Of a stretch of DNA of 32,000 bases, positions 6,001 through 28,892 are shown piece after piece. Origin of the DNA: an uncultured bacterium (GTDB taxonomy: Bacteria; Margulisbacteria; WOR-1; CAVSGV01); NCBI GenBank assembly GCA_963699255.1, contig OY969425.1, positions 1,080,001 to 1,112,000 on the forward strand. The letters are read 5' to 3'. The notes under the pieces were generated by a model. It had not been told where the DNA came from and did not search any database. It saw only the letters and a list, made by a program, of their open reading frames with translations. The first letter of the stretch is position 1; each line of letters begins with the position of its first letter. The position numbers were made by a program, and so were the translations under genes.

Positions 6001-6217
6001 TAGGATATATGACATCACTGGAGCATTGGTTAAAGAACTTGACGGAACTACGAATCCCGAAGGAGCCAGTATTTGGAATAAATATAACGATGTTGAATGG
6101 GATGGACGCAACGGCAGAGGCGACTTAGTTCTTAACGGCATTTATCCGTTTGAGATAACCGTTAATTACGGTGATAAGTCCGTGACGGGAAGAGGAAATA
6201 TAGCAGTGCTAAAATGA
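2..6217 (+). CDS. Giant secreted surface/adhesin-like protein, 5'-partial. Contains multiple FlgD-Ig-like domains, a BNR/Asp-box propeller-like region and a C-terminal FlgD-Ig/T9SS-CTD-like sorting domain
   Basis: The 2044-aa ORF (83..6217) stays open in frame back to nt 2, so the true N-terminus lies outside the window. It has recurrent (F/I)(T/S)PNGDxxDD ... WDGKD ... CPDG(Q/K/E)Y ... A(A/S)DSAGN modules of FlgD-Ig type. An Asp-box KSDNGGTRW and repeated VWED(Y/T)R.G...IF motifs occur in the C-terminal third. The tail NWPNPFDPNKERTKIRYRL..VTIRIYDITGALVKEL..WDGRNGRGDLVLNGIY resembles T9SS/FlgD-type C-terminal domains. Confidence 0.85.
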   Translation, partial: YGTVVSNVISSQLQEAKGNSVSFSKDKLMGGGVFEPGEYSIRLKMVDEAGNEETLNKANFTIISGLSISNAVASPLIFTPNGDNHDDYVTFKYKVSGGVGDVTAKVKIKSLAGATVKTFTSQLASSGYDQEIWDGKDEHNNLCPDGQYQYEISAADSAGNQASAITGSLTLISKPTIVVYADPKTLSSSGNDMTIYYNINYQGQLITGNSQVTATIYDQSNTIVYYFSDTKGEGNYSNKWAGQNNQTGGIVPNGTYRLEVKSSDPTGTIYYYATDLVVGAPLQITGESASPAIFTPNGDNHDDNTTIGYVVSGGFGSVVSTVEIKTLSGTTVKTFTDSDVGTPVTCSFTWDGKNGSNNLCPDGKYQYEITAADSTGDLSAQITGEIVLAANPTITMSATPTTISPNSNASTIHCTINYGGLFSGNSQLTIEVFNGSGIKVYSLTGSKGEGSYSYLWGGENNQTSGYVPDGTYTLEVQATDPTGTIYSYTADLVVSAGLQVTGESAVPIIFSPNGDNHYDTTTISYFVSGGVGNGVSTVEIKSLAGTTVKVFSSPYSPGSNPSFTWDGKDISGSLCPDGEYTYVITASDSAGNSSPIVSGGIVLAANAAISMYADPKTLSPNGDGITNASTMYCVISYGGLISGDSQIAMDIFDHSGIKVYSLTDTKGEGSYSYAWGGVNNQAGVFVPDGTYTLKMQASDPTGTIYSYTTDLLVSAELKITGESAVPVIFTPNGDGHDDTTTISYLVSGGVSSVTATVEIKSLARTIVKSFTDTVHSTPSTINVTWDGNDGSGSMCPDGKYICEISALDSAGNVSSLTGGDITLVKSTTISLEAAPLKISPNGGGVDEYTVISYSIDYKGGLISGNSQIAINIYDKTGTKVYSFTDTKGEGNYSLNWGGLNNQIGGKVLDGTYTLEVQATDPTGTVYPFIADIIIDRGPPKITDNGISPTEPITPNGDRQQDDVTIKYQVTDVGNPISSIEVEIYNSAVTFDASTLVRRIIGSAGGDTLWDGRVDVTGGNGDKDGNGYADEGLYKYVIKASDIFGNTATLVSTNSIQVDKVYLSFGEILSDPSNPYFSPNGDSVKDSTVISFNLETTEEVHPYYLQSKGMKIAGMKILSSGYNVGKVTMKIKDMSGNTIRTLMDSVSREAGITYEVTWDGKDSSGIVVPDGSYTIEVKAVDMIGDPATNSIISGITSNCSQAVVDTVSPIAQITSPADGSWQKGIINIVGSASDANPMSYSLGYDGSSTNIGSGAGNKINEAIVSWDASAVNKTCTLELYAVDAAGNTAEAIRTFNVDNLPPQISNISIMSNGQQRSYFNPYLDGSISVECQIDDNSFNAGAGGYSVPCSTITIDSDVWNGATKIATLKSNQPVTSGNKYVSWTGLNDSSPSDYVNEGDYQIRLSVTDLAGNNTIVTRTVSLVDDQKITSREGGSYSHDPNLALSGTSLNLRFITGESWGQAQIKSDRLSVSGRDKCQQKWVGSVQCDKSQTVEVIDSYHVQTQYQDQIYCWNYLNNASGVNVWNNGHSHYTNSSATYNATVSKAMRCQTIFWLDSELMNPYGYGVGDADMTVIFQERKYNLNKTCNVTSLQALNNASSPIFEGDTYESFACGGATKHLVWASKFYTVAGNGPSGGGPYVYTNNYEIIYNKSVNGILNYDNNGNTYYPLEIKLTNKSAGDSINPAVATDSTTGNKVYVVWEDYRNGSGQIFINRSTTSGEVWAGDVPLTSETNCSTPSIATDSSGNTIYVAFAKQVNGHKELNVMKSDNGGTRWHGPVRITRYEFSTCEASKSSIVCDASGNAYVAWEDTRAGTSEIFFQKIPSNFAPFSSPGMTIMSMPQQPIVQAPITITSTSSTPELISPVDKATVKALRPTFKWYGVQNVTDYRIECATSSDESSLANSLDYFTATISDVSGAKPVCEFTQNEHFMGLDESTPSNPYWYWRVQTITSEASTSEVGSFRIELPTSLSGVTNWPNPFDPNKERTKIRYRLGREPNSVTIRIYDITGALVKELDGTTNPEGASIWNKYNDVEWDGRNGRGDLVLNGIYPFEITVNYGDKSVTGRGNIAVLK
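188..2810 (+). repeat. Four tandem ~650-660-bp (~220-aa) intragenic repeat units, each with two Ig-like modules
   Basis: Unit boundaries are marked by (L/S)(Q/K/S)I(T/S)G(E/L)SA.P.IF(T/S)PNGD at about nt 188, 845, 1493 and 2150, with a degenerate fifth boundary near 2810. Each unit ends with GEG(N/S)YS..W(A/G)G.NNQ.G..VPDGTY.LE(V/M)(K/Q)(S/A)(S/T)DPTGTIY. Confidence 0.85.
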
Positions 6218-7260: not shown

Positions 7261-8235
7261 ATGAAAATAACTTTCTTGACCATATTAATTATTGCAGTTT
7301 ACTGCTCGATCGTTTTTTCCATGGGAACTACGCCGCCGACTAGTGAAGTTGCTATTGTCCCTTCCGTTGCGTTCGTGAGATCGATAGGCTCCGCCGGTTC
7401 CGGGAACGGCCAATTCCTTTATACCCGTGATGTTTGTGTCGGGGCCTACGGCGACCTTTCAACCGGCCTTGGGAACATCTTTGTCGCTGATACGGGAAAT
7501 AACAGGATCCAGGTCTTTGACAGCGGCGGCGATTTTTTGTTCCAGTTCGGGAGCTTTGGAAGCGACATAGGAAAGTTCAACTCGCCGTCAAATGTCGTGG
7601 TCGATTTCAATTTCAGTATCTATGTTATGGACAGGGAGAACAGCAGAGTGCAGAAATTCGACATTAGAGGCAATTATTTATCCCAATTCGGCTCTTTTGG
7701 AACGGACTCAGGACAATTCAGTGACCCCTGCGGCTTGGCAGTTGATTCCTGGGGAAGGATATTTGTCGCAGACACCGGCAACAACAGAATACAAGAATTT
7801 GATTCATCTAGTTCTTTTCTGGCTTCAATAGGAGCGTTCGGTTGGGGTGATGGCTTCTTTGACACACCTCGTGATGTCGCAATAGATAAAGACAAGAATA
7901 TCTATGTTGCGGATACGAAGAACGACAGGGTCCAGAAACTTGATGAATTCGGGAAACCGATACTCTCTTTTGGGAAATCCGGCAGCGGTGACGGCGAGTT
8001 CCACAGTCCCTCAGGGATCGCAGTCGATGATAAATTCATATGTGTGAGTGACAGCGGGAACAACAGGGTGCAGGTATTTAACAAGAGTGGAGTGTTTCTC
8101 GCGAAATTCGGATCGATAGGCTCAAAGAACGGTGAGTTCAACGATCCAACCGGCATATCGATCGGCAAACCCGGTCAGCTTTTTATTGCTGACACAAATA
8201 ACCATCGCGTGCAGGAATTTAAAATAAGTTTCTGA
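7261..8235 (+). CDS. Secreted NHL-repeat (six-bladed beta-propeller) protein
   Basis: There are six repeats of (F/V)ADTGNNR(I/V)Q(V/E/K)F(D/N)..G.F...FGS.GS..G.F..P.G(I/L/V)(A/V)VD. I prefer ATG 7261 (MKITFLTILIIAVY signal peptide) with RBS GGGAGGG at 7251-7257 over the TTG at 7249 in the ORF track. Confidence 0.85.
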   Translation: MKITFLTILIIAVYCSIVFSMGTTPPTSEVAIVPSVAFVRSIGSAGSGNGQFLYTRDVCVGAYGDLSTGLGNIFVADTGNNRIQVFDSGGDFLFQFGSFGSDIGKFNSPSNVVVDFNFSIYVMDRENSRVQKFDIRGNYLSQFGSFGTDSGQFSDPCGLAVDSWGRIFVADTGNNRIQEFDSSSSFLASIGAFGWGDGFFDTPRDVAIDKDKNIYVADTKNDRVQKLDEFGKPILSFGKSGSGDGEFHSPSGIAVDDKFICVSDSGNNRVQVFNKSGVFLAKFGSIGSKNGEFNDPTGISIGKPGQLFIADTNNHRVQEFKISF

Positions 8236-11718: not shown

Positions 11719-12015
11719 TTTCCAGTATAGCATTTTACCGCCTTTCCCTGTAAAGCGCGCTCACGTTAGGACTTCGTATAAAGCTCTCTGTCCCGAAAAA
11801 AGTCCTCATCCTTGCGGATTTTTTCGGGTATTTGTTCGCGCCCTCCTCCAGTCGCCCGACTAAAGTCGAGGCTCCTTCCGGCCCTCCGCTCCTTACGCTC
11901 ATTCACCATAATTAGATAATAGGTAGGGTTCATTCGCTCCTCTCGCTTCGGGTGACAGGGGCGGTAAAATGCTGTTCCTTCCTGTGTGTTTTCATTTCAC
12001 AGGGAGGTGGTTTTC
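11719..12015 (+). ncRNA. Conserved ~295-nt structured non-coding leader upstream of the DprA-like gene (copy 1). Could be a cis-RNA or a DNA element such as an origin
   Basis: It aligns with 25297..25591: ttccagtatagca..., gacttcgtataaagc, cctcatccttgcgga, ctcctccagtcgccc, gaggctccttccggccctccgct, ctcgcttcgggtgacagg. Single-base indels break any common reading frame. Two hairpins show compensatory changes between copies (11792..11828 and 11854..11872). Confidence 0.5.
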
Positions 12016-12551
12016 ATGTCTCGTTTAGCAGGTGTCATTGGTTCCCGTTCATTGCCCGTTTCTTTTGCCCCGCTTGTCTCCCACATTGTTTCCCTTCTCC
12101 TTTCCCGTGGCTACGGCATTGCCTCTGGCGGCGCTGTCGGCGCTGATTCATTTGCTCTTGCAGCGGTTATTCATCGGGGGGTGGCTTCACGCTGTGTCAT
12201 TTACTCCGCTTGGTCTTCTGCTTCGGGCTTTCCTTCCTCTGTTCAGCCTCAGGTTTCTCGTTTCCTTGCTTCTGGTGGTCAGGTTATATGGGGTTCCTGT
12301 CCGGTTGGTGCTTTGCGTCAGGAGGCGGTTTCTGCTCTTCTCGGCAGGAACAGGCGTCTTGTTTCTGCTTCCTCAGTCATTGTTGCCTTCCTACACACCT
12401 ACACAGCCAGTCTCGTGGCTCTCTTTACACGGTCCGTCAGGCTGTTGAGCAGGGTGTTCCGGTCATCGTGTTCCTTTGCGGCGGCGGTGCGTCTTTGCCC
12501 GCTGATCTTGCTTCCAGGTGTTTAGTGTTTACAGAAAAGGAGGTGGTTTAG
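12016..12551 (+). pseudogene. Minimal DprA-like (DNA_processg_A Rossmann core) gene, disrupted by an 8-bp tandem duplication
   Basis: RBS GGGAGGTGG precedes ATG 12016. MSRLAGVIGSRSLP...IASGGAVGADSFALAAV...LLGRNRRLVSASSVIVAFLH then shifts frame to SQSRGSLYTVRQAVEQGVPVIVFLC...EKEVV*. The duplication is cctacaca x2 at 12390..12405. Removing one copy restores AFLHSQSRG, colinear with AFIHGQSRG in the intact copy 25592..26116. Confidence 0.75.
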
Positions 12552-13492: not shown

Positions 13493-14743
13493 GGTCGCGT
13501 TAACTTTCTTTCCCTTCCCATTCAAAACAAATCATTTCCGCGCCTCTCCAAGCACGAACACAAAAAAGACGACGCAGGCAGATACAGCTGGCTTGAAATG
13601 AAGACAAAGTCAACAGTTCTTGTAGTTAGCGATGAATTGCTGACAACCAAGGACATCTTTAGCAAAGCATGGGGAAACTAGGTCAAATGGTCCAAGCGAA
13701 AACACACGATGAAACCTGCTCCCTGCTTGCCTGCCTTTGTAGGGATTGCCTCTGGCTGGTATGATGGTATAAGTCTTGGTGTAGGCGGGTCTTGATAGAA
13801 AGCGATCAGCTGAAGCTGCTTTTTTTGCCTGCTTGTCTTTGGCCTGATAACCATTCATTGTTCCGCTGCCTTACTGTTGAAATGTAAAATATGTGCGGGA
13901 TTCCGACTTGTCTGCCGACAGGCAGGCTTTACGTCGGGAGTCATCGCCTGTCCCCCTCTTTACGAACTGTAAGGCTGGCGGAAGCCTCGGCAAAAGCGGA
14001 TGTCATTGTTAATTGTGTAACTGTCTCAATCTGAGTCTGAGAATGAAGCAAAACAAATGTTACATTTCAGCCAACGTGAAATAGCATGGATAATCGCCTT
14101 GCCCCGTTTTCAGTAGTGGGAAATGCTCACTGTTCTTTTTCAAAGCCGGTAGCTCCCTGCCAGCCTGCCCCGCCGCAGGCGGTAGCTTGTTCTGCCTACC
14201 CACCTTTGACGAGATCGGCCTGTCCGCCTCTCTACGAGCTGTATGGCTGGCGGAAGTATCGGGATAATGAACTTGCTTACCACACCACAGGGGGTAGCTT
14301 GCATCAACCGGAGCATCGGGGCGATGAGTTTACTTGTCCCGCCTGTTCGCCTCTGGAGAAAGCGAAGCCGTAAGCCGAGGACTCCGACCAAGCTCAGTCG
14401 AGGTCTTGAAGGAGTAGGTTTTGCAGCAATAGTTTCAAACTCCCAGCGTGTCTAAAACTCTTTGGGTCAGGTTCTTCTGTCTTTTGTTCGTATTCATATC
14501 TAACATCATTGATCCTTTGTCTTTCTCTACTGCTAATGAACAACATCTATGTATCAACTGTTAAAATGAATATCCTTGTGTACCGAAGTAACAAATAAAA
14601 TCCCAATTTGGCCGGTCTGGCCGCGCGCCTGCGCTCGTGCGTATGTGCCTGTGTACGCGTATCGTATATAGAGGGATACTGTGAAGTTCCCCGGCTAAGT
14701 CACAGTATCGGGAGATCATTCTGAACGCCGCAAATTCAGCTTC

Positions 14744-14772
14744 TTGCACCCGTGAATTGTATTAGGTAGAAT
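14744..14772 (+). promoter_or_regulatory. Sigma70-type promoter TTGCAC-17-TAGAAT, homologous to the tRNA-Pro promoter
   Basis: cTTGCACccgtgaattgtattaggTAGAAT compared with cTTGCACccgtgaatagtgttgggTATAAT (minus strand, 21156..21184). Confidence 0.55.
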
Positions 14773-14778
14773 AATGCT

Positions 14779-14861
14779 AACAGTTCGACCTGAAGAAGGT
14801 TGCGCTACCAAGAAATTGGAGCAAACCGCTGATTTTCCTAGATCGGCGGTTTTTCTTTTTT
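14779..14861 (+). ncRNA. Candidate small transcript: tRNA-3'-end-like stub fused to a copy of the tRNA-Glu trailer and terminator
   Basis: It lies downstream of promoter 14744..14772. The sequence is ...cagTTCGAcctgaagaaggttgcGCTACCA, then the trailer, then the terminator CCGCTGAT-N8-ATCGGCGG-TTTTTCTTTTTT (14826..14861). From GCTACCA onward it is identical to the sequence following tRNA-Glu. Confidence 0.3.
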
Positions 14862-14956
14862 GGGAAGGTGTTCGGCGGTCGGCGTTTGGGCGGCGGCAAA
14901 CGCCGACCGCCGGAAAAGAACCTCCGTTCAGATTTTCCGCGCCAAAATCACTATAA
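14804..14956. repeat. IR1-L: left copy of a perfect 153-bp inverted repeat
   Basis: It is the reverse complement of 16581..16733, checked base by base with 153/153 matches. Confidence 0.95.
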
Positions 14957-15027
14957 CTAATTACTATTGTTGTTTTTCTTTTTGTAAATTGGCGCCCAAT
15001 ACTCAATATCCAAATGAATCCGGCCTT

Positions 15028-15234
15028 TTAAGATAAGCCCAAAAGCTTGTCTACTGAAACCCCCAAACCCACAGCTATCGCCTTCACCATCTCGATTCCC
15101 GGATTTTTCACCATCCCTTTTTCAACTCTTAACAAGTGATGTGAAGTAAACTTACCGCCACATTTAAAAGCTAATTTCTCTCGCGACAGACCTGTTTTTT
15201 TTCGATATTTCTCGATATTTTCACCTAAGTGCAT
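15028..15234 (-). CDS. Xre-family helix-turn-helix transcriptional regulator
   Basis: The 68-aa product contains LGENIEKYRKKTGLSREKLAFKCG...LLRVEKG..NPGIEMVKAIAVGLGVSVDKLL (HTH_3 pattern). It is divergent from the recombinase gene. Confidence 0.8.
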   Translation of the reverse strand: MHLGENIEKYRKKTGLSREKLAFKCGGKFTSHHLLRVEKGMVKNPGIEMVKAIAVGLGVSVDKLLGLS

Positions 15235-15324: not shown

Positions 15325-16767
15325 ATGAAAATAGCTATATATACGCGTGTTTCAACCGACACCCAGGCCGACAAAGAATTCAATTCCTGTGAAGCTCAGG
15401 AGCAGAAGATAAGGTCATTTGTCTTAAGTCAGGAAAATATGATGGTTTATAAAGTCTATTCCGACCAGGGTTATACAGGGGCTAACACTGACCGCCCCGC
15501 TCTAACGGAAATGCTTAACGACATACAGAATAGCAAGGTCGATCTTGTCGCTGCCTATAAAATTGACCGTCTCACTAGGTCGCCGAAAGACTTTTATCAT
15601 TTAATTGATATATTTGAACAACACAAGGTCAATTTTATATCCGTTACTGAACGATTCGATACCTCCACCCCATCGGGACGGCTTCTCAGGAATATCATGC
15701 TTACTTTCGCGCAATTCGAAAGAGAGCTTATCAGTGAAAGAACAAGAGATAAAATGCACGAATGCGCGAAAAAAGGCCTCTGGACTTGCGGCCATACGCC
15801 ATTTGGTTATAAAAGGCTAGAAAAGAAACTGATCATTGAGCCGGTAGAAGCAAAGATTGTAAGGGCTATCTTTGAAATCTTTATCTCTACAGGTTCAACT
15901 GCTGAGGTTTATAAGAAACTGAAAGAGAAAAGTTTGTTTAACAGGCGCGGATTGCCTATATCTCAAGAAGAAATCGGGAAAATACTCAAACGGATTGTAT
16001 ATATCGGTAAAATCGAATTTAAAGGCAATATTTATCAGGGAATTCATGAGCCGATAATTTCTGCTGAGTTACTTGAGGCTGCTCAGGGACTTCGCAAAGA
16101 AAGGGCAAAGAAAAGTAAAGTATTCAATTTCTCTCTTTTCCCCGGAATAGTTCTCTGTAAGGAATGCGGCTCAGTAATGAGCGCATCTTTCTCTAATAAG
16201 TTTAAAGATGCCCGCCGCATTAGATATTTTTATTATCGATGCTCAAGCGTTACAAAAAGGGACATTTCTTTTTGCGCCACCAGATATGTCAGTGCCGACC
16301 GCCTTGACTCGTTCATCATCGATAGTCTTGATAAGATATCGAAAAATCGGCAGTATCTTGAGAGTTTGATCTTCACGCTCAACTATCAGCAGGATGGGTG
16401 CCAAAAGGGAATCGAACCGGTGGGGTCGGCTTCATCCTATTCTCCTGAAAGGTTGAAAGATATCCTTCGAGATATTACTATGGTCCCGAAGTTTAAGTCC
16501 AAAACTGAAAAGGAAATTATCATTCAGAAGCATATTAAACAGATCAATTATTCAAAGGAAGCTATTGAAGTCGTGATAAATTATAGTGATTTTGGCGCGG
16601 AAAATCTGAACGGAGGTTCTTTTCCGGCGGTCGGCGTTTGCCGCCGCCCAAACGCCGACCGCCGAACACCTTCCCAAAAAAGAAAAACCGCCGATCTAGG
16701 AAAATCAGCGGTTTGCTCCAATTTCTTGGTAGCCCCACGGGGAATCGAACCCCGATCGTCAGCTTGA
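15325..16767 (+). CDS. Large serine recombinase (resolvase catalytic domain, recombinase domain and zinc ribbon)
   Basis: The N-terminus is MKIAIYTRVSTDTQ (catalytic Ser), followed by YKIDRLTRS and LRNIMLTFAQFERELISERT. A CKECGS...YYRCS zinc ribbon is present. It is about 70-75% identical by eye to 26312..27790 over the N-terminal domain. The last ~62 codons are encoded by IR1-R, and the ORF stops inside antisense tRNA-Glu (...APRGIEPRSSA). Confidence 0.9.
   Translation: MKIAIYTRVSTDTQADKEFNSCEAQEQKIRSFVLSQENMMVYKVYSDQGYTGANTDRPALTEMLNDIQNSKVDLVAAYKIDRLTRSPKDFYHLIDIFEQHKVNFISVTERFDTSTPSGRLLRNIMLTFAQFERELISERTRDKMHECAKKGLWTCGHTPFGYKRLEKKLIIEPVEAKIVRAIFEIFISTGSTAEVYKKLKEKSLFNRRGLPISQEEIGKILKRIVYIGKIEFKGNIYQGIHEPIISAELLEAAQGLRKERAKKSKVFNFSLFPGIVLCKECGSVMSASFSNKFKDARRIRYFYYRCSSVTKRDISFCATRYVSADRLDSFIIDSLDKISKNRQYLESLIFTLNYQQDGCQKGIEPVGSASSYSPERLKDILRDITMVPKFKSKTEKEIIIQKHIKQINYSKEAIEVVINYSDFGAENLNGGSFPAVGVCRRPNADRRTPSQKRKTADLGKSAVCSNFLVAPRGIEPRSSA
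16581..16733. repeat. IR1-R: right copy of the 153-bp inverted repeat, comprising the last 7 nt of tRNA-Glu plus its 3' trailer
   Basis: See IR1-L. On the tRNA strand it contains the tRNA terminator (16676..16711) and a 15-bp perfect hairpin GGCGGTCGGCGTTTG-N8-CAAACGCCGACCGCC. Confidence 0.95.
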
Positions 16768-21117: not shown

Positions 21118-21146
21118 TGGTGGCTCGACCCGTTTCCTGCCGAGCC
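21118..21146 (-). other. Acceptor-stem-like microhelix with an encoded ACCA end, in the tRNA-Pro leader
   Basis: The minus strand reads GGCTCGG-CAGGAAACGGG-TCGAGCC-ACCA, with a 7-bp stem (the last pair is G-T). It sits 9 nt downstream of the -10 box. Confidence 0.45.
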
Positions 21147-21155
21147 ATCCCTCTG

Positions 21156-21184
21156 ATTATACCCAACACTATTCACGGGTGCAA
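21156..21184 (-). promoter_or_regulatory. Promoter TTGCAC-17-TATAAT reading toward tRNA-Pro
   Basis: The minus strand reads cTTGCACccgtgaatagtgttgggTATAATcagaggg. It lies about 160 nt upstream of the mature tRNA-Pro 5' end. Confidence 0.6.
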
Positions 21185-21217
21185 GAAAAAGGATTTACAT
21201 AGGCTATAGCTAGAGGG

Positions 21218-21262
21218 AACAGCGGTCTTCGCTTCCCCCACACCCCCGCGAAGACCGCTGTT
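21218..21262 (-). terminator. Perfect 15-bp stem hairpin immediately after the protease stop codon, a likely operon terminator
   Basis: The structure is AACAGCGGTCTTCGC-(15 nt)-GCGAAGACCGCTGTT. There is no clear U-tract, so intrinsic termination is not certain. Confidence 0.5.
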
Positions 21263-21268
21263 AATTAA

Positions 21269-22000
21269 TCATGATTCTTTCTTTTTTTGAGATAGCGCAC
21301 TTTCTATGCCAAATAAAATTAAATGTGCTGAGCAAGCCAAGGAGATGCCGGAATTATAAGGTAGCTTTGCAACGCGTTTATTATTATCATCATATAAAGA
21401 AATTGAGTCGGGCAAAAACCCATATATTATTCCAATAAATTTCCCATCTTCTTGGGAGAATACTGGGGAGCCACTATTCCCGTGGCTGGCAGCCCCGTCA
21501 ATCAATAAAACATTTTTATCTTTTGTGATATTGGCAATGCTCCCTCGTCTAATAAACGGCTTAAATTGCAATTCTTCATTAGCAAGTCCCAATGGGTATC
21601 CTAAATATACAACAAATAAGCCCTCTTTAATCTCGCTATGCTGTTTCAGCTCGTCAACATCTAGTAATTCGCGCGGCCCAAACACTTCCTCCAGCGTTTT
21701 ACCAACATCCTCTTGCCTATGTGGTATTGAAAATAATGCCAAATCAAGGTTTGTATGAGCAGTTTCAAACTTGACTTTTCTTATTATCCTCTTATCGGGA
21801 TTAAGAAGCACTTTTATTTCACCATTTCTTGCAAGTTGGCCTACATGTTTATTTGTTAAAATAAAAGGAACAAATTCATCTTGCGATATCTTCTTTTGTA
21901 TAAGTGTGCCAGTCATTGATGGTGTTTCACGCTCCCAATCCAATATTGCAACAACACTTTTGTGACGTTTAATGTAAATTTCCCTGGTATCAATCGCCAT
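21269..22000 (-). CDS. Trypsin-like (S1/Trypsin_2-type) serine protease, with no signal peptide
   Basis: The catalytic-triad context is ILTNKHV (His), NLDLALF (Asp) and GAASHGNSGSPVF (Ser). The product is 243 aa. Confidence 0.75.
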   Translation of the reverse strand: MAIDTREIYIKRHKSVVAILDWERETPSMTGTLIQKKISQDEFVPFILTNKHVGQLARNGEIKVLLNPDKRIIRKVKFETAHTNLDLALFSIPHRQEDVGKTLEEVFGPRELLDVDELKQHSEIKEGLFVVYLGYPLGLANEELQFKPFIRRGSIANITKDKNVLLIDGAASHGNSGSPVFSQEDGKFIGIIYGFLPDSISLYDDNNKRVAKLPYNSGISLACSAHLILFGIESALSQKKKES

Positions 22001-22124
22001 ATTGTTTCATGCCCCCTTTCTCAATCATCTCTTTACCCTGCCATTCTATTAATTATTTCCTGAATCATCTCAAGATGTTTAATTTTGTTTGACATCATTT
22101 AGCCTTCAATAAATCGCTCTAAAA

Positions 22125-23114
22125 TTATTTGCACAACAAATATTTAACTTTATTGCCTGACCCAACACATTTAATTTTACCTTCAGAAGCGAGTTCTTTT
22201 ACATATTTACAGACCGTGAGATATCCCCTTCTAATTGTATGTGATATTTCATTTATAGATAGTTTGTCCGCAGTTTGCAACAATTGAATAATTTGCTGCT
22301 TACTTTCCATCTTTCTTTCTTTAGCCTCTCTTGATCTTGCTTCCACGGTTTTTGAAAATGCTGCTAATGTATTAGGATGCATTCTATGTTTAGGCCTTTC
22401 GATACCATATTCTATTCTAAATTTATGTATATTCCCCCAATACCGATTAATCTTCCTCCAAGTTAACGCCCAAGACATCCTCGAGCTTAGTTCTGTTGTG
22501 CTGGGATGATGCCCTAAGCAATCAACTATCTGCTGATACCCTTGCAAGCATTTCCCAATCCTTTGTTGCCTTTTGTATTCACCATAATCAATATTAAAAT
22601 GCTTAATAAGTAACTTTAAGTCAATATTATCAATATTAAGCTTCTCGCATAATTCGTTTGTATTAAATGTTTCTCTGATAGCCGCGATAATCCTATCCCT
22701 TGAATATGAGGTGACAAGCTTTTCAATGTTATGCACCTTGTGCCTTTCATAAACAAATAACCCGTACTTACCGCCCTTTTCCAATAATTGTCTTACGCGT
22801 TCCCTTGTAACATTTAATTCATCTCCAACTTTTTGTAACGTTAAATATTTATCATATAGTGTTTTTACCTCCATCAAATGTTTTGCTACATCAGGGGAAA
22901 CAGGCCTCTCTATCCCCAACCTTTTTCGAAGTTCAAATATTCCAATCCCTCCATCAGGATCAAGCAACTCTAAAAGAAATGAATACGGCACATTAAGTAT
23001 TTGTGCTACCTTAACCAAGGAATAAGCATTTCGCCACATTCTAATAATCTCATACTTAATGGCCTCAGAATTCTTGGTGTTAAACAATAACTGCAGTTTT
23101 TTTAATGGCTTCAT
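22125..23114 (-). CDS. Multi-HTH DNA-binding protein with sigma-70 region-4-like repeats and a C-terminal winged helix
   Basis: It contains LTLQKVGDELNVTRERVRQLLEKG (sigma r4-like), SLVKVAQILNVPYSFLLELL and RYWGNIHKFRIEYGI. The C-terminal region is LSINEISHTIRRGYLTVCKYVKELASEGKIK. Its start overlaps the GHKL gene stop by 4 bp (ATGA). Confidence 0.6.
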   Translation of the reverse strand: MKPLKKLQLLFNTKNSEAIKYEIIRMWRNAYSLVKVAQILNVPYSFLLELLDPDGGIGIFELRKRLGIERPVSPDVAKHLMEVKTLYDKYLTLQKVGDELNVTRERVRQLLEKGGKYGLFVYERHKVHNIEKLVTSYSRDRIIAAIRETFNTNELCEKLNIDNIDLKLLIKHFNIDYGEYKRQQRIGKCLQGYQQIVDCLGHHPSTTELSSRMSWALTWRKINRYWGNIHKFRIEYGIERPKHRMHPNTLAAFSKTVEARSREAKERKMESKQQIIQLLQTADKLSINEISHTIRRGYLTVCKYVKELASEGKIKCVGSGNKVKYLLCK

Positions 23115-24853
23115 TCTTCTGTCTCTTTAGGCGCCTGTTTTGAGGCAAGCCGGGCTAACTCATTGTAGACTTGATTAAAAATAATAAGGTTCCCTTCGCT
23201 ATAGTCATGGGAAATTTCAGTAAAAGCAACATCACGAACAAGGCTATCCAGACAAGCATCCTTTGAAGCTCTTATATAAAAACTATGCTTTTCGTTGATC
23301 TCAATTAAATTGCTATCCTTTGTAAACTTCACTAAATCTCCTGTTTCTGACATATCTACAGTATTTATATTATAATTCTTGCCTGAATATGCCATTTTTT
23401 CTGCTTTATTAAGACTTTGGTTCCTTCTTTCCCTTTTATCTTTCCCTCTAGTTACAACACCAGCTGCTTTTTTTGCCTCTTCTTCAACCTTATCTAAATT
23501 CGGATAAGGATTATCGGGCGCGTTCTCAATTTCCTTTGTAAACTCTTTTTTAATTTTTGCTTCTAAACTACCCAGAGTAAGCGGATCATCAAGTTTAGAA
23601 ACAATAGTATTTACTTCGGTCTCAACTCGCTTTACTATATTTCGATCCTGTTCCTTCTTTGCAGTTTCATCTTTTTTTAATAACTTATTTTGAACATCAG
23701 AAATTGACTTGTGTCCAAAATCCCAATACTCCCGATATTCAGGACAATCTACGAAATCGTTTTTTGCAAATGTAACAAAGTTTTTAAGCCCGTCCGCTTC
23801 CCCATATCCAAATAACCTATATCGATATCTTCCTCCTGATGTTAATCTAAACAAATCAAACCATTCAGCTTTCTCATTGACAATTCTGCCATTTACTCGC
23901 GTCCATACCCCCTGCTTTGTTACAGGGATAGGCTCTTTGGTGAAATAGATAACTAATTTTACATGGCCAATTAGCTTGAGATCTTTCTCATATTCAAATT
24001 TTTCGTTATACTCAAATTTTGGCTCCTCTATTTCAATATCTTTTCTTTCTCTCTCTTTAATAATTGACATAATTATTTTAAAGTTTTGACTTTTTGGCAT
24101 TTTATTTTCAAATCGTTCAATCAAGCGATCACTATCAATAGTTTTAGCGTTTAATTGTTCCATATAAATTGCTGTACCATGTAAGTCTTTTCCACATTGC
24201 TTTGTGAACACTTTGCTTCTTATTGCACTTACATATTTTGCCTTGTCCAATTCTGCTCTATTCATATTGAAAATATGTTCTTTTCCATCTTTTTTCGTTA
24301 TTATCTTGCATACCTTACATATATTTGTTATTGCTAATTTACCACCCATTCCATATTCGCCAATTGGAGATCTACTAAATTTTGGGGATTTTGAATCAGC
24401 AGTTTTATTACTTTCTCCGTATATTACATATGATGCGAGAGCTTCTTCGTCCATCCCATTTCCATCATCAATAATATTTAAAGCATTTTTGTCATAATCT
24501 AATATTATCTGGACCGTAGTTGCGTCTGCATCATATGCGTTAACAATTAATTCTTCGATATTTGAAGCAAGTTCTTGAAAGGTTCTTTTTGCCATCTTTT
24601 TAATGCCGACTGTTGCAAAATCTCCCCTTAATTCCCATTCCTTAAATTCTTCTCCTTCATTTTCCGATTTAATATTCTCATGGTCATGAATGTAATCCGT
24701 AACAGTCTTTTTTGAGAATTTGTATCTTGATCCAACTTTCCTTCCGGGAAGATCCCCTTTTTCAGCTAATTTATAAAGTGTCTGTCTCGTAATTCCAAGC
24801 AATTTACATGCTTCTTCGGTAGATATTGGTTCCAATAAATTATTTTCATTCAT
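23111..24853 (-). CDS. Fusion of an excisionase/MerR-type HTH with a GHKL (HATPase_c_3, MORC-like) ATPase and a large uncharacterised C-terminal region
   Basis: The HTH is EEACKLLGITRQTLYKLAEKGDLPGRKVGSRYKF. The Bergerat-fold motifs are N-box EELIVNAYDADAT, G1 IIDDGNGMD and G2 IGEYGMGGKLA. The product is 580 aa. RBS GGGAGG is present. Confidence 0.75.
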   Translation of the reverse strand: MNENNLLEPISTEEACKLLGITRQTLYKLAEKGDLPGRKVGSRYKFSKKTVTDYIHDHENIKSENEGEEFKEWELRGDFATVGIKKMAKRTFQELASNIEELIVNAYDADATTVQIILDYDKNALNIIDDGNGMDEEALASYVIYGESNKTADSKSPKFSRSPIGEYGMGGKLAITNICKVCKIITKKDGKEHIFNMNRAELDKAKYVSAIRSKVFTKQCGKDLHGTAIYMEQLNAKTIDSDRLIERFENKMPKSQNFKIIMSIIKERERKDIEIEEPKFEYNEKFEYEKDLKLIGHVKLVIYFTKEPIPVTKQGVWTRVNGRIVNEKAEWFDLFRLTSGGRYRYRLFGYGEADGLKNFVTFAKNDFVDCPEYREYWDFGHKSISDVQNKLLKKDETAKKEQDRNIVKRVETEVNTIVSKLDDPLTLGSLEAKIKKEFTKEIENAPDNPYPNLDKVEEEAKKAAGVVTRGKDKRERRNQSLNKAEKMAYSGKNYNINTVDMSETGDLVKFTKDSNLIEINEKHSFYIRASKDACLDSLVRDVAFTEISHDYSEGNLIIFNQVYNELARLASKQAPKETEE

Positions 24854-24905
24854 AATAGTTCAACCTCCCAATTACTTATTTTAACACATTTACTAATACA
24901 TACAG

Positions 24906-24934
24906 ATATTAACACATATTAACATTTATGTCAA
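24906..24934 (-). promoter_or_regulatory. Strong promoter TTGACA-17-TAATAT for the GHKL operon, overlapped by a tandem 9-bp direct repeat
   Basis: The minus strand reads cTTGACAtaaatgttaatatgtgtTAATATctg. The repeat TGTTAATAT-g-TGTTAATAT (plus-strand coordinates 24906..24924) covers the spacer and the -10 box. Confidence 0.65.
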
Positions 24935-25002
24935 GAGGCAAAATGCTGGGCGCCATTTATAAGAGTGGGGGTCTAAGGAACGCGCCCGCATGTAGTGAAT
25001 GC

Positions 25003-25048
25003 GTTGGGTATAATCAGAGGTCTGGCTCGGCAGGAAACGGGTCGAGCC
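25003..25048. repeat. Inverted copy of the tRNA-Pro promoter and microhelix module
   Basis: gttgggTATAATcagaggtctGGCTCGGCAGGAAACGGGTCGAGCC is the reverse complement of 21122..21167, with a 3-nt difference (tct versus gat). Weaker identity extends to gtgaat (24995..25000). Confidence 0.9.
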
Positions 25049-25081
25049 ATTTTATCGTTCCCGCAAACCATTGCGGATTTT
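25021..25081 (+). ncRNA. Candidate ~60-nt transcript: microhelix fused at the discriminator position to a copy of the tRNA-Met trailer and terminator (a tRNA-gene mimic)
   Basis: The -10 TATAAT lies at 25009..25014. The microhelix GGCTCGG..TCGAGCC-A is at 25024..25049. The trailer follows, with terminator CCGCAA-acca-TTGCGG-ATTTT at 25061..25081. Confidence 0.3.
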
Positions 25082-25231
25082 GGGCGGCTTGGAGCGGCGC
25101 TTGCGTCGCGACAAGCCGCCTTATTCTTAGCTGAAAGCAAGTTCTCTTCCGCCGAAGGGTCGCAAAGCGGGCCGTAGGCGGCATTTTTAGCGTCAGCGCA
25201 GGAAGGATCTCCGCTCTCGGAATACAATAAC
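25047..25231. repeat. IR2-L: left copy of a 185-bp inverted repeat
   Basis: It is the reverse complement of 27568..27752 with 184/185 matches. The single mismatch is at 25206. Confidence 0.95.
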
Positions 25232-25296
25232 ATGCCTTCTATTGCCTCTATCGAATATTATGCCACTTTCCGATGTGCCATTTAATTTTTCCATCA

Positions 25297-25591
25297 TTTC
25301 CAGTATAGCATTTTTTTGCTTTTCTCCTGTAAAGGTCGCTCACGGAGGGACTTCGTATAAAGCACTCTATCCAGAAAAATCCTCATCCTTGCGGATATTT
25401 TCTGGTAAAAGTTCGCTCCCTCCTCCAGTCGCCCGCCTCCGGCGAGGCTCCTTCCGGCCCTCCGCTTCGTTACGCTCTCTCGCCCATATCTCCGCTTAAG
25501 GTAGGCTCGTTCGCTTCACTCGCTTCGGGTGACAGGCGCAAAAAAATGCTCCTCCTTCCTTGTATTCATATTTTTTACAGGAGGTGGTCAT
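25297..25591 (+). ncRNA. Conserved structured non-coding leader (copy 2)
   Basis: It is homologous to 11719..12015. The hairpins are at 25371..25405 (CCAGAAAA...TTTTCTGG) and 25431..25448 (GCCCGCC-tcc-GGCGAGGC). ORF 25242..25499 is not conserved in frame in copy 1. Confidence 0.5.
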
Positions 25592-26116
25592 ATGTCTCGT
25601 ATTGTTGGTATTGTTGGTTCCAGGTCTCTTCCCGCTTCTTTTTCCTCGCTCATTTCCTCGCTTGTGTCCGCGTTAGTTGCTCGTGGTTTCAGGGTGGCCT
25701 CAGGCGGCGCTGTAGGGGCTGATCAGTTTGCTCTTTCAGCCCTCGTTGAGCAGGGTTTGTCTGCATCGGGTGTTGTTTTTTCTGCCTGGGCTTCCGCTTC
25801 CGGTTTTCCTGTTCCGGTCCGGCCTCTTGTTTCCCGTTTTCTTGCTTCCGGTGGTCAGGTTGTTTGGGGTTCCGGTTCGTCGTCTCAGCCTCGTTCAGCG
25901 GTGGTTTCCGCGCTTCTCGGCAGGAACAGCCGTCTTGTTTCAGCCTGTTCGCTTGTCATTGCTTTCATTCACGGCCAGTCCCGGGGAACGCTTTACACCA
26001 TCCGTCAGGCTGTCAGGCGCGGTATTCCTGTTTATGTGTTCCTTTGCAGTGAGGCTTCATTGCCAGCTGATTTGGCTCCTCACTGTTTAGTTATAAATAA
26101 AAGGGAGGTGGTTTAG
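25592..26116 (+). CDS. Minimal DprA-like protein (DNA_processg_A Rossmann core only, 174 aa), with an extremely adenine-poor coding strand
   Basis: RBS AGGAGGTGG precedes ATG 25592. The product contains IVGIVGSRSLP...VASGGAVGADQFALSAL...ALLGRNSRLVSACSLVIAFIHGQSRGTLYTIRQAVRRGIPVYVF. This follows the DprA pattern (GSR ... SG.A.G.D ... RN.... S..V.V.E....SG.L.T...A...G..V...). The SAM and winged-helix domains of full-length DprA are absent. Confidence 0.65.
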   Translation: MSRIVGIVGSRSLPASFSSLISSLVSALVARGFRVASGGAVGADQFALSALVEQGLSASGVVFSAWASASGFPVPVRPLVSRFLASGGQVVWGSGSSSQPRSAVVSALLGRNSRLVSACSLVIAFIHGQSRGTLYTIRQAVRRGIPVYVFLCSEASLPADLAPHCLVINKREVV

Positions 26117-26117
26117 T

Positions 26118-26309
26118 ATGGTTTTCATTCCCATTCATCCGTGCTGTTACTGTGGAAAAACCGAGACAGGATATGCCTGTACGACAGCAGAAAAAGTCGA
26201 GTGTTTTAAATTTCTGAATTATATTCAGAAACTCAACAGAATGAGGGCGCAGAAAGTGCTGATAAAAGAGCTTAAATATTTACTAGAAACAAACAAAGGA
26301 GGTAAATAA
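26118..26309 (+). CDS. Cys-rich 63-aa protein conserved in both elements
   Basis: The product begins MVFIPIHPCCYCGKTETGYACTTAEKVECFKFLNYIQKLNRMRAQKVLIKELKYLL... It is coupled to the DprA-like stop (TAGTATG). Its homologue is 12553..12729. Confidence 0.7.
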   Translation: MVFIPIHPCCYCGKTETGYACTTAEKVECFKFLNYIQKLNRMRAQKVLIKELKYLLETNKGGK

Positions 26310-26311
26310 TC

Positions 26312-27821
<1,510 letters not shown>

Positions 27822-28534: not shown

Positions 28535-28699
28535 GCGGATGCAGATTATATCAGAATTTGCGCTTTTTGTGAACACCCTGTAAAATATAATGACAAATAT
28601 TCAATGACCAATGTCAAATGAATGAATGTATAATCATTATTCTTTAACTTGTCATTTGTAATTTGTTCATTGGGAATTATCCCGCGAAAGCGGGATTGC

Positions 28700-28774: not shown

Positions 28775-28892
28775 CTCCGCCTTTGGCGGAGAATGACAAA
28801 TGTCCAATGACCAATGTCAAATTAATGTATAATCATTATTCCTTAATTTGTCATTTGTAATTTGTTCATTGGAAATTATCCCGAAGGGATCA

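What the first reader, a model, noticed from the sequence alone, without database searches (positions are those of the whole stretch)
21218..24934. AT-rich three-gene operon: HTH-GHKL ATPase, multi-HTH protein and cytoplasmic trypsin-like protease, a candidate conflict or defence module
The operon lies on the minus strand between tRNA-Pro and element copy 2. It has a near-consensus promoter (TTGACA-17-TAATAT). The first two genes overlap by 4 bp, a 124-nt gap precedes the third, and a 15-bp-stem hairpin follows the last stop. Gene 1 fuses an excisionase-type HTH to a MORC-like GHKL ATPase (ELIVNAYDADAT, DDGNGMD, GEYGMGGK) and ~350 aa of unknown function. Gene 2 consists of several sigma-r4-like and winged HTHs. 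Gene 3 is a signal-peptide-less S1 protease (H in TNKHV, D in DLALF, S in GNSGSPVF). The region is visibly more AT-rich than its neighbours and sits in a tRNA/MGE hotspot. GHKL/MORC ATPases and intracellular trypsin-like proteases each recur in prokaryotic immune systems, but I do not recognise this particular trio as a named system.
Basis: partly seen in the sequence, partly recalled or inferred. Interest (0 to 1): 0.75.

Follow-up and report, generated by a model that had tools for sequence, protein, structure and literature searches.

The report
Mobile MORC-like ATPase gene pair
This AT-rich cassette beside a mobile-element recombinase carries a widely transferred, apparently self-regulated gene pair (a MORC-like DNA-clamp ATPase and a partner built from promoter-binding domains) whose function is unknown but is probably defence or genetic conflict; the protease next to it is a local add-on, not part of a conserved trio.

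Summary
The three genes are not a conserved trio. The conserved unit is the pair g1 and g2. g1 has an excisionase-type HTH, a MORC-like GHKL+S5 ATPase, a coiled coil and a small C-terminal domain. g2 has sigma-70 region 4, an optional RNAP alpha-CTD and winged HTHs. A g2 homologue directly follows g1 in all 21 other distinct loci that could be checked, from CPR phyla, Omnitrophota, Margulisiibacteriota, Gammaproteobacteria and Eubacteriales. A sister-clade protein fuses the g1 architecture to sigma-r4 and DnaA-C HTH domains. The pair travels with its own TTGACA promoter and a tandem GTTAW operator at 10-bp spacing. The S1 protease g3 recurs in only one other locus. Elsewhere its family sits next to TIR, type I RM and HEPN/MNT genes. 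In this window the cassette abuts a tRNA-targeting large-serine-recombinase element. It is bracketed by a 47-nt inverted repeat whose only two mismatches are a central TC kept in direct orientation, the pattern expected of serine-recombinase attL/attR sites. PADLOC, NCBIfam and the searched literature contain no matching named system. The best reading is a mobile MORC-type conflict module with a variable downstream gene. Its function is untested.

The parts
21121..21167 (.). Left arm of the 47-nt inverted repeat (I3-L). It reads X (27 nt, TGGCTCGACCCGTTTCCTGCCGAGCCA), then TC, then Y (18 nt, CCTCTGATTATACCCAAC). Candidate attL-like junction.
21218..21262 (-). 15-bp-stem hairpin after the g3 stop codon. 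It is a possible transcript end but has no U-tract.
21269..22000 (-). g3: cytoplasmic S1 (Trypsin_2) serine protease, 243 aa. It is a locus-specific accessory gene, not part of the conserved module.
22001..22124 (-). g2-g3 spacer. No terminator-like structure (z 0.01); only a weak promoter-like match, so co-transcription is likely.
22125..23114 (-). g2: multi-HTH DNA-binding partner, 329 aa. It has HTH_23, sigma-70 region 4, a conserved LGHHPSTTEM...WGS..FR.EFGIE motif and a C-terminal wHTH.
23111..24853 (-). g1: 580-aa HTH plus MORC-like ATPase (whole gene).
24686..24826 (-). g1 residues 10-56: excisionase/MerR-type HTH (HTH_17, TIGR01764).
23774..24643 (-). g1 residues 71-360: GHKL ATP-binding domain plus S5-type transducer. 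Motifs E100/N105, D129-G131-G133 and G165..K172 are invariant in 32 homologues.
23450..23743 (-). g1 residues 371-468: long helices, predicted coiled coil.
23135..23371 (-). g1 residues 495-573: conserved small beta-beta-beta-alpha-alpha-alpha domain (invariant S502, G505, D506, E518, N520, H523, Y526, D550). Function unknown.
24906..24934 (-). Promoter TTGACA-17-TAATAT. The -35 box is conserved across loci.
24881..24923 (-). Operator-like GTTAW repeats. A tandem GTTAATATGTGTTAA lies at 24909-24923 inside the promoter spacer and -10 region, and a third GTTAA at 24881-24885. The same 10-nt-phased motif is found upstream of g1 in other loci.
25003..25049 (.). Right arm of the 47-nt inverted repeat (I3-R), reading rcY, then TC, then rcX. 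It also holds a TATAAT box of a promoter-like site facing the recombinase operon. It abuts the recombinase element's inverted repeat.
25047..27752 (+). Adjacent recombinase element, copy 2. It consists of a 212-nt inverted copy of the recombinase 3' end (25047-25258), a DprA-like gene (25529-26116), a 63-aa ORF (26118-26309), a large serine recombinase (26312-27790) and the other repeat arm (27541-27752), which abuts tRNA-Met. Together with g1-g2 it forms the block shared with L040.

Best explanation
The functional unit is a horizontally mobile, apparently self-regulated two-gene module, g1 plus g2. It is not the trio. g1 is a DNA-binding MORC-type GHKL+S5 ATPase. By analogy with MORC, MutL and Hsp90, it should dimerise on ATP binding and act as a clamp on DNA or on a partner protein. 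g2 supplies further DNA contacts through domains of the kind RNA polymerase uses to read promoters (sigma-70 region 4, and alpha-CTD in some members). The pair probably works as one complex. It most likely represses its own promoter through the GTTAW repeats spaced one helical turn apart. I infer that it acts in genetic conflict, such as defence against or exclusion of invading DNA, by ATP-driven clamping or silencing of target DNA or transcription. A non-conserved gene downstream sometimes adds an enzymatic activity. In this window that extra gene is the cytoplasmic S1 protease g3, which is probably co-transcribed. It is either a facultative effector or an independent defence-island gene. Here the cassette is cargo attached to a tRNA-targeting large-serine-recombinase element and is bounded by att-like junctions. 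What the data show: pair conservation, the fusion protein, the fold, the operator motif, the mobility context and the non-conservation of g3. What is inferred: complex formation, autoregulation, the clamp or silencing mechanism, the defence role and excision.
For: Pair conservation: g2 follows g1 in all 21 other distinct loci with downstream sequence, often overlapping or within about 20 nt. The g2 homologues found lie on contigs whose lengths match those carrying g1 homologues. Fusion: P0191 has the sister-clade g1 architecture followed by Sigma70_r4 and Bac_DnaA_C HTH domains. Fold: the top PDB matches are MORC3, MORC4, MORC2 and SMCHD1 ATPase modules (E 6e-14, TM 0.57 on the target), and the ATP-binding motifs are invariant. 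g2 domains: Sigma70_r4 in 19/20 members, RNA_pol_A_CTD in 5/20, Sigma70_r3 in 3/20. Cis element: GTTAA occurs at 17.6 per kb upstream of g1 against 1.3 per kb background. There are 32 occurrences, against a mean of 4.3 and a maximum of 15 in 2000 shuffles, with 10-nt spacing recurring in 9 loci. Mobility: g1 is 46-81% identical across very distant phyla. Contiguous homology of window 27686-22134 with L040 covers the recombinase, DprA-like gene, g1 and g2, while the flanks are unrelated. GC is 0.35 against 0.45-0.49. The central dinucleotide of the 47-nt repeat is TC on the + strand in both arms. Conflict context: genes downstream of or next to the pair include GmrSD plus type I RM (L048), FRG plus HNH (L051), an AAA_15/21 ATPase (L065), DUF2130 three times, GIY-YIG, and serine and tyrosine recombinases. 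The validated mzaABCDE system also pairs a sigma-like protein with a GHKL ATPase. g3 relatives lie next to a TIR protein, type I RM and HEPN/MNT genes, and g3 hits PADLOC PDC-S45 at 3e-16.
Against: There is no experimental evidence. The conserved pair has no recognisable nuclease or other toxic effector. The g1 C-terminal domain gave only weak zincin-like fold hits (E 0.28) and lacks HEXXH. Several loci sit among housekeeping genes such as ruvABC, POR and truA, so defence-island enrichment was not shown statistically. No PADLOC system model matches. Autoregulation is inferred from motif position only. The two most divergent loci, L005 and L008, lack GTTAA. The att-like reading of the 47-nt repeat rests on one locus. 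The same sequence contains a sigma-70-like promoter also found beside element copy 1, so it could be a duplicated promoter or leader.
Confidence: 0.5

Rival explanations
1. g1-g2 is a regulatory or accessory module of the serine-recombinase mobile element. The excisionase-type HTH of g1 and the HTHs of g2 would control recombinase expression or act as a recombination directionality or DNA-looping factor. The pair would therefore serve the element rather than defend the host.
For: The pair is arranged divergently next to a large serine recombinase in the window, in L040 and in L001. The junction between recombinase element and operon is homologous between the window and L040. g1 carries a bona fide excisionase-family HTH. 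The two promoters lie back to back within about 115 bp. The operon is bounded by att-like junctions.
Against: Only 2 of the other loci surveyed have a serine recombinase within about 4 kb, and 2 more have a tyrosine integrase. Many pairs sit alone between housekeeping genes. Element copy 1 in this window lacks g1-g2. The operator motif lies in the g1 promoter and was not found at the recombinase promoter.
Confidence: 0.2
2. One reading: a genuine three-component system in which the HTH-GHKL ATPase and the multi-HTH protein sense a trigger and activate the cytoplasmic trypsin-like protease as the effector.
For: The three genes share one promoter, no terminator separates g2 and g3, composition is similar and one hairpin follows g3. 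A second locus, L001, also has a Trypsin_2 gene directly after g2. Two of about 22 loci is more than chance for such a rare gene type. Proteases serve as effectors in other immune systems (general knowledge).
Against: A g3-family HMM finds no protease in the other 20 distinct loci. The closest relative, L040 (79% g1 identity), has an unrelated 220-aa ORF there, and homology ends after g2. The L001 protease has an N-terminal membrane segment and is 29% identical over 85 aa. g3 relatives occur without g1-g2, next to a TIR protein, type I RM or ruvB.
Confidence: 0.12
3. The pair is an ordinary chromosomal transcription or nucleoid-organisation factor with no conflict role.
For: The conserved pair has no effector domain. 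All recognisable domains bind DNA. Some loci lie among housekeeping genes.
Against: The distribution is patchy across unrelated phyla at 46-81% identity. Composition is foreign to the host. The pair is linked to recombinases and restriction genes. It carries its own conserved promoter and operator. All of this points to an accessory, horizontally moving module.
Confidence: 0.08

Closest known systems
Prokaryotic MORC / paraMORC GHKL+S5 ATPases of restriction-modification-like operons (Iyer, Abhiman and Aravind 2008, PMC2292703)
   Same: Both have an N-terminal GHKL domain plus an S5 transducer with intact ATP motifs, a family-specific C-terminal extension, a sporadic laterally transferred distribution and a proposed DNA-looping or clamping role.
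   Different: Those families are defined by linkage to superfamily-II helicases, methylases and nucleases. Here the invariant partner is a multi-HTH protein. No helicase, methylase or nuclease is conserved, and g1 carries an N-terminal excisionase-type HTH.
mzaABCDE anti-phage system (Gao et al. 2020, as cited in PMC9523054 and in bioRxiv 10.1101/2022.06.16.496414)
   Same: Both have a sigma-70-like HTH protein encoded next to a MutL/MORC-like GHKL ATPase.
BbrUII/HgiDII-family restriction enzymes (NCBIfam NF050001)
   Same: This is the best-scoring curated model for the GHKL domain of g1 (7.7e-23) and for all 40 sister-clade proteins tested.
   Different: Only the N-terminal ~180 residues align, at 80.9 bits against a cut-off of 550. 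The endonuclease part is absent.
GHKL-fused Shedu (VcSduA, PMC12137116)
   Same: Both are defence-associated proteins with an N-terminal GHKL ATPase proposed to gate a C-terminal domain.
   Different: VcSduA has a DUF4263 PD-(D/E)xK nuclease. g1 has no such hit and has a different C-terminal fold.
PADLOC candidate PDC-S45 and other stand-alone cytoplasmic Trypsin_2 proteases (for g3)
   Same: g3 matches the PDC-S45 profile at 3e-16 and has a catalytic triad, no signal peptide and no PDZ domain. Its relatives lie in defence-island-like contexts.
   Different: Only profile positions 35-215 of 293 align. PDC-S45 is itself an untested candidate.
Large-serine-recombinase integrative elements (attL/attR with a non-palindromic 2-bp core); the integron is a looser analogy
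   Same: The junctions are about 47 bp with inverted arms and a directly oriented central dinucleotide. A serine recombinase is encoded next to them.
   Different: The recombinase lies outside the bracketed segment. The inferred attB and attP would have perfectly palindromic arms. No recombination was demonstrated.

Membership tests
MORC / paraMORC GHKL ATPases | GHKL ATP-binding domain with motifs I-IV, followed by an S5-fold transducer | tested here: met
   HATPase_c_3 4e-21. Motifs are invariant in 32 sequences. The AF2 model has pLDDT 77, and its top PDB hits are MORC3, MORC4 and MORC2 over about 390 columns.
MORC / paraMORC GHKL ATPases | The MORC-specific sequence motif that separates true MORCs from paraMORCs | not tested
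   The motif is described in PMC2292703, but I did not align g1 to reference MORC sequences.
MORC / paraMORC GHKL ATPases | Conserved operon linkage to SFII helicase, DNA methylase or restriction-fold nuclease | tested here: not met
   A census of 116 neighbouring proteins from 19 loci found no such family recurrent. The only invariant neighbour is g2.
mzaABCDE | MzaB-type GHKL ATPase | tested here: not met
   NCBIfam NF041932 scored 18.3 bits against a cut-off of 850.
mzaABCDE | MzaA sigma-70-family protein | tested here: not met
   NF041931 scored 15.1 bits against a cut-off of 800, and only about 20 residues aligned.
[not shown]
   The operon has three genes and none gives such a hit.
BbrUII/HgiDII restriction enzymes | Full-length match to NF050001, including the endonuclease part | tested here: not met
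   The score was 80.9 bits against a cut-off of 550, and only profile positions 21-198 of 659 aligned.
Shedu (GHKL type) | DUF4263 PD-(D/E)xK nuclease domain | tested here: not met
   No Pfam hit in g1 beyond residue 262. The C-terminal model gave no nuclease fold hits.
Excisionase-family HTH (TIGR01764 / HTH_17) | Domain score above the curated cut-off | tested here: met
   TIGR01764 scored 49.6 bits (cut-off 28.8) and PF12728 46.8 bits (cut-off 27).
S1 / Trypsin_2 serine peptidases (g3) | Domain above cut-off and a His-Asp-Ser triad | tested here: met
   PF13365 scored 55.4 bits (cut-off 27.6). H is in TNKHV, D in DLALF and S in GNSGSP.
HtrA/DegP proteases (g3) | PDZ domain(s), export signal and family-level score | tested here: not met
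   NF047968 scored 22.7 bits against 470. There is no PDZ hit, and the N-terminus is hydrophilic.
PADLOC PDC-S45 (g3) | Match to the PDC-S45 profile | tested here: inconclusive
   E 3e-16, 57 bits, profile positions 35-215 of 293. The tool gives no curated cut-off.
Serine-recombinase attL/attR pair | Sites of about 40-50 bp with inverted arms and a non-palindromic central dinucleotide in the same orientation at both sites | tested here: met
   The left arm reads X(27)-TC-Y(18) and the right arm rcY-TC-rcX. The only two mismatches of the 47-nt repeat are this dinucleotide. My estimate of the chance probability is about 0.005.
Serine-recombinase attL/attR pair | Recombination between the sites (circle junction or empty site observed) | not testable with these tools
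   Collection scans were exhausted and no read data are available.

The most novel reading that the evidence does not exclude
A MORC-like ATPase and a partner assembled from RNA-polymerase promoter-reading domains form a nuclease-free immune or exclusion system. It would clamp and silence invading DNA or hijacked transcription, a bacterial counterpart of eukaryotic MORC silencing. The module would move as an excisable cassette captured at a dedicated site beside a tRNA-targeting serine-recombinase element, an integron-like cassette capture performed by a serine recombinase.
Probability: 0.1. Interest if true: 0.85.

Novelty: new variant of a known kind. Interest (0 to 1): 0.58.

Why it matters
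Eukaryotic MORC ATPases silence transposons by compacting DNA. Their bacterial relatives have only been predicted to work in restriction-like systems and have hardly been tested. This pair is a compact, strongly conserved and widely transferred version. Its obligatory partner is a promoter-type DNA binder rather than a nuclease or helicase, and it comes with its own conserved operator. That makes it a tractable two-gene system for asking what a prokaryotic MORC does. It also shows that the apparent three-gene system is a core pair plus a swappable third gene, which matters when defining candidate defence systems from single loci. The att-like junctions suggest that a serine-recombinase element may acquire cargo cassettes site-specifically.

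Tried and rejected
1. A conserved trio was rejected. A g3-family HMM over six-frame ORFs of all related loci hit only L001.
2. A nuclease in the g1 C-terminus was not found. Pfam and a PDB profile search gave nothing. A separate AF2 model of residues 365-580 (pLDDT 77) gave only weak minigluzincin, Wss1 and PprI hits (E at least 0.28), and g1 has no HEXXH, so I make no peptidase claim.
3. A phage or plasmid origin was not supported. There is no full-length relative in 50,697 phage records, 72,556 plasmids or IMG/VR. BFVD gave only generic GHKL folds.
4. A functional link to RuvB was rejected. L005 has a RuvB-like AAA gene after g2, but the RuvB genes beside L003 and L057 are host-type (61% identical to each other), so this looks like a shared insertion site.
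5. The pair as a transposon with terminal inverted repeats was not supported. Only the window and L006 have flanking repeats, and the L006 repeat lacks the core-dinucleotide signature (and inspection).
6. A structured RNA in the region was not found. Rfam returned only the tRNAs.
7. A distant annotated plasmid relative (Agrobacterium pAt1) sits beside a DEAD/DEAH helicase, the classical paraMORC context, and has no HTH partner.
8. Literature searches for a named HTH-GHKL, MORC-like or HATPase_c_3 defence system found none.

Full report
**Observation.** The window holds three minus-strand ORFs at the stated positions. g1 is 23111-24853 (580 aa), g2 is 22125-23114 (329 aa) and g3 is 21269-22000 (243 aa). 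g1 and g2 overlap by 4 bp, and a 124-nt gap separates g2 from g3. The promoter TTGACA-17-TAATAT lies at 24934-24906. A 15-bp-stem hairpin at 21218-21262 has dG -27.6 kcal/mol and no U-tract. The g2-g3 gap has no terminator-like fold (z 0.01), so one transcript is likely. GC is 0.34-0.37 for the three genes against 0.45-0.49 for the flanks. tRNA-Pro, tRNA-Met and two copies of a serine-recombinase element flank the region.

**Domains.** g1 has an excisionase-family HTH (TIGR01764 49.6 bits, cut-off 28.8; HTH_17 4e-12) and a HATPase_c_3 GHKL domain (4e-21).
- An AF2 model built on 32 homologues (pLDDT 77) shows the HTH at residues 1-59 and GHKL plus an S5-like transducer at 71-360. Long helices occupy 371-468 and a small beta-beta-beta-alpha-alpha-alpha domain 495-573.
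- Foldseek against the PDB ranks the MORC3, MORC4, MORC2 and SMCHD1 ATPase modules first, with E 6e-14 and TM 0.57 on the target. Hsp90 family members follow.
- The ATP-binding motifs are invariant across the family, so g1 is probably an active ATPase.
- g2 has HTH_23, sigma-70 region 4 and weak C-terminal winged-helix hits.
- g3 is a Trypsin_2 protease with the triad motifs, no PDZ domain and a hydrophilic N-terminus. It matches the PADLOC candidate PDC-S45 at 3e-16.

**The conserved unit is the pair, not the trio.** g1 has 108 homologues at 46-81% identity. They come from Margulisiibacteriota, Peregrinibacteria, Omnitrophota, Pseudomonadota, Amesbacteria, Levybacteria, Roizmanbacteria and Eubacteriales MAGs.
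- In every one of the 21 other distinct loci where sequence continues past g1, the next gene is a g2 homologue (28-42% identity, 248-553 aa). It is often overlapping or a few bases away.
- The g2 homologues retrieved lie on contigs of the same lengths as g1-bearing contigs.
- Across 20 g2 family members, Sigma70_r4 is found in 19, RNA_pol_A_CTD in 5, Sigma70_r3 in 3 and the homing-endonuclease-associated repeat weakly in 2. Winged HTHs are common.
- An exhaustive profile search of 1.84 billion representatives shows a sister clade of roughly 500-aa proteins. They share the GHKL, S5, coiled-coil and C-terminal architecture but lack the N-terminal HTH.
- One sister-clade protein, P0191, carries Sigma70_r4 and DnaA-C HTH domains fused to its C-terminus. 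This Rosetta-stone fusion argues that g1-type and g2-type proteins act together.

**g3 is not conserved.** A profile HMM of the g3 family, searched against all six-frame ORFs of the related loci, hits only the gene after g2 in L001 (Omnitrophota). That protein has an N-terminal membrane segment and is 29% identical to g3 over 85 aa.
- In other loci the position after g2 holds different things. Some have unknown proteins (L006, L008, L040, L047, L052) and L005 has a RuvB-like AAA protein. Others have GmrSD (L048, with type I RM upstream), FRG plus HNH (L051), DUF2130 (L041) or an AAA_15/21 ATPase (L065). L003, L046 and L050 have host genes there.
- The g3 family itself is small, with 28 hits and a best identity of 53%. 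Its members occur without g1-g2: after a host ruvB (L057), beside type I RM and HEPN/MNT genes (L058), and in a TIR-protein operon (L060).
- Two proteases among about 22 loci is more than chance for such a rare gene. g3 may therefore be a facultative effector, but it is not a defining component.

**A conserved cis element.** Upstream of g1, 11 of 14 loci have a TTGACA -35 box followed by GTTAW motifs spaced 10 nt apart.
- GTTAA in the gene's orientation occurs 32 times in 1820 nt (17.6 per kb). Background in the same loci is 1.3 per kb. In 2000 shuffles the mean was 4.3 and the maximum 15.
- In the window, the only GTTAW-N5-GTTAW match is at 24909-24923, inside the promoter spacer and -10 region.
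- The module thus carries its own promoter and operator across phyla. The simplest inference is autorepression by its own HTH proteins.
- The two most divergent loci, L005 and L008, lack the motif.

**Mobility and the recombinase element.** The closest relative is L040 (Margulisiibacteriota, 79% g1 identity). It has the same divergent layout: a tRNA gene, a large serine recombinase, a small ORF and a DprA-like gene. An inverted copy of the recombinase 3' end follows, then the promoter, g1 and g2.
- Nucleotide homology is contiguous from window 27686 to 22134 and stops just after g2. The outer flanks are unrelated.
- The recombinase module and g1-g2 therefore form one shared mobile block, and g3 lies outside it.
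- A 47-nt inverted repeat brackets the operon at 21121-21167 and 25003-25049. Its only two mismatches are adjacent. The left arm reads X(27)-TC-Y(18) and the right arm rcY-TC-rcX, so the dinucleotide is TC on the + strand in both arms while the flanks are inverted.
- This is the signature expected of serine-recombinase attL and attR sites, where a non-palindromic 2-bp core sets polarity (established knowledge). I estimate the chance probability at about 0.005.
- Recombination between the arms would excise a 3.9-kb circle carrying g1-g2-g3.
- There is a caveat. The Y side contains a sigma-70-like promoter (TTGCAC-17-TATAAT) that faces the recombinase operon. It is also present beside element copy 1, at 14741-14772, with 28/32 identity to the reverse complement of 21156-21187. 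The repeat could therefore be a duplicated promoter or leader.
- Only 2 of the other loci surveyed carry a serine recombinase nearby, so the pair is not obligatorily tied to this element.

**Comparison with known systems.** No PADLOC system model matches g1 or g2 beyond single-domain hits (mad1 HTH, TmtA GHKL).
- NCBIfam's best model for the GHKL domain is the BbrUII/HgiDII restriction enzyme, at 80.9 bits against a cut-off of 550 and over the N-terminus only. MzaB and MzaA score 18 and 15 bits against cut-offs of 850 and 800.
- All 40 sister-clade proteins tested behave the same way.
- The MORC and paraMORC families of Iyer et al. are defined by linkage to helicases, methylases and nucleases. 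That linkage is absent here.
- The GHKL-Shedu protein VcSduA has a DUF4263 nuclease.
- Full-text searches found no description of an HTH-MORC plus multi-HTH pair.
- The family is absent from cultured phage and plasmid records and from IMG/VR.

**Mechanism.** The shown results are a strictly conserved, translationally coupled gene pair, a fusion in a sister clade and a MORC-like fold with intact ATPase motifs. Also shown are promoter-type DNA-binding domains in g2, a conserved operator, horizontal mobility, occasional restriction-gene neighbours and a variable downstream gene.
- From these I infer that g1 dimerises on ATP binding and acts with g2 as a DNA clamp or silencer, that the pair represses its own promoter, and that it serves defence or exclusion. 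g3 would act here as an add-on effector or as an independent neighbour.
- I give the pair-as-conflict-module reading 0.5 and a recombinase-element regulatory role 0.2. The true three-component system gets 0.12 and an ordinary chromosomal regulator 0.08.

**Verdict.** The finding is real and the domain reading is right, but the unit must be redrawn as a two-gene module with a swappable third gene, carried here as cargo of a serine-recombinase element. It is a new variant of the prokaryotic MORC/paraMORC kind and is of moderate-to-good interest. The operator and the att-like junctions give directly testable handles.

Noticed in passing
window 14799-14964 / 16573-16738 (copy 1, tRNA-Glu); 25047-25258 / 27541-27752 (copy 2, tRNA-Met); L040 5218-5381 / 7697-7860 (tRNA-Glu): Each large-serine-recombinase element is bracketed by a 164-212-nt near-perfect (94-98%) inverted repeat made of the recombinase gene's own 3' end. 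The outer boundary is sharp at the 3' end of a tRNA gene, and the recombinase ORF reads on into the antisense of the tRNA. The arms stay almost identical within an element, although the recombinases of different copies are only about 57% identical. That suggests ongoing inversion or gene conversion.
   Followed up: partly
window 25529-26116 and 11986-12525; L040 6829-7431: Every element copy carries a short DprA-like gene (DNA_processg_A, 4.6e-14) with high GC (0.52) and strong AT skew. In copy 2 and L040 it lies inside the inverted repeat. In copy 1 it lies outside, 2.8 kb upstream of the recombinase.
   Followed up: partly
window 14741-14772 (+), 21156-21187 (-), about 24990-25016 (+): There are three related copies of a sigma-70-like promoter (TTGCAC-17-TATAAT or TAGAAT). 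The copy at 21156-21187 is a hybrid. Its -35 side is identical to the copy beside element copy 1, and its -10 side is identical to the copy beside element copy 2. It points towards tRNA-Pro. The origin is unexplained.
   Followed up: partly
L003 10644-11678; L057 3-638: A g1-g2 pair (L003) and the closest g3 homologue (L057, 53%) both sit directly at the 3' end of a host-type ruvB gene. The two RuvB proteins are 61% identical. This may be an insertion hotspot.
   Followed up: partly
L006 9673-9715 / 13703-13745: A 43-nt, 86% inverted repeat brackets the Amesbacteria g1-g2-218aa cassette, with 3987 nt between the arms (3835 nt in the window). It has no sequence similarity to the window's repeat and no core-dinucleotide signature.
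   Followed up: partly
L001 12178-12203 and 13394-13419: 26-nt direct repeats (TGTTATCAACATYGAYCAG...) flank the unknown 336-aa gene that follows the protease in the Omnitrophota locus, as if it were a separately inserted cassette.
   Followed up: no
L063 / L064 ends (about 0.8 kb after g2): Two independent assemblies of the Margulisiibacteriota contig break at the same point downstream of g1-g2. A repeat may lie there.
   Followed up: no
window 15028-15234 (-): A 68-aa Xre-type HTH ORF (judged from the sequence only) lies divergent from the copy 1 recombinase. Copy 2 has no counterpart.
   Followed up: no
window 28621-28684 and 28820-28883: A 64-nt, 94% direct repeat precedes each of the two tRNA-Val genes. 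It is probably a duplicated promoter or leader.
   Followed up: no
window 575-2179 within ORF 83-6217: The 2044-aa ORF contains three repeats of about 300 nt spaced about 650 nt apart (60-75% identity), so it is a repeat-domain giant protein.
   Followed up: no
L001 7544-7846: Three copies of ACTTTAAAGTTTTAAAGTAA lie between the recombinase operon and g1 in the Omnitrophota locus. They form a second, locus-specific repeat set in the divergent control region.
   Followed up: no
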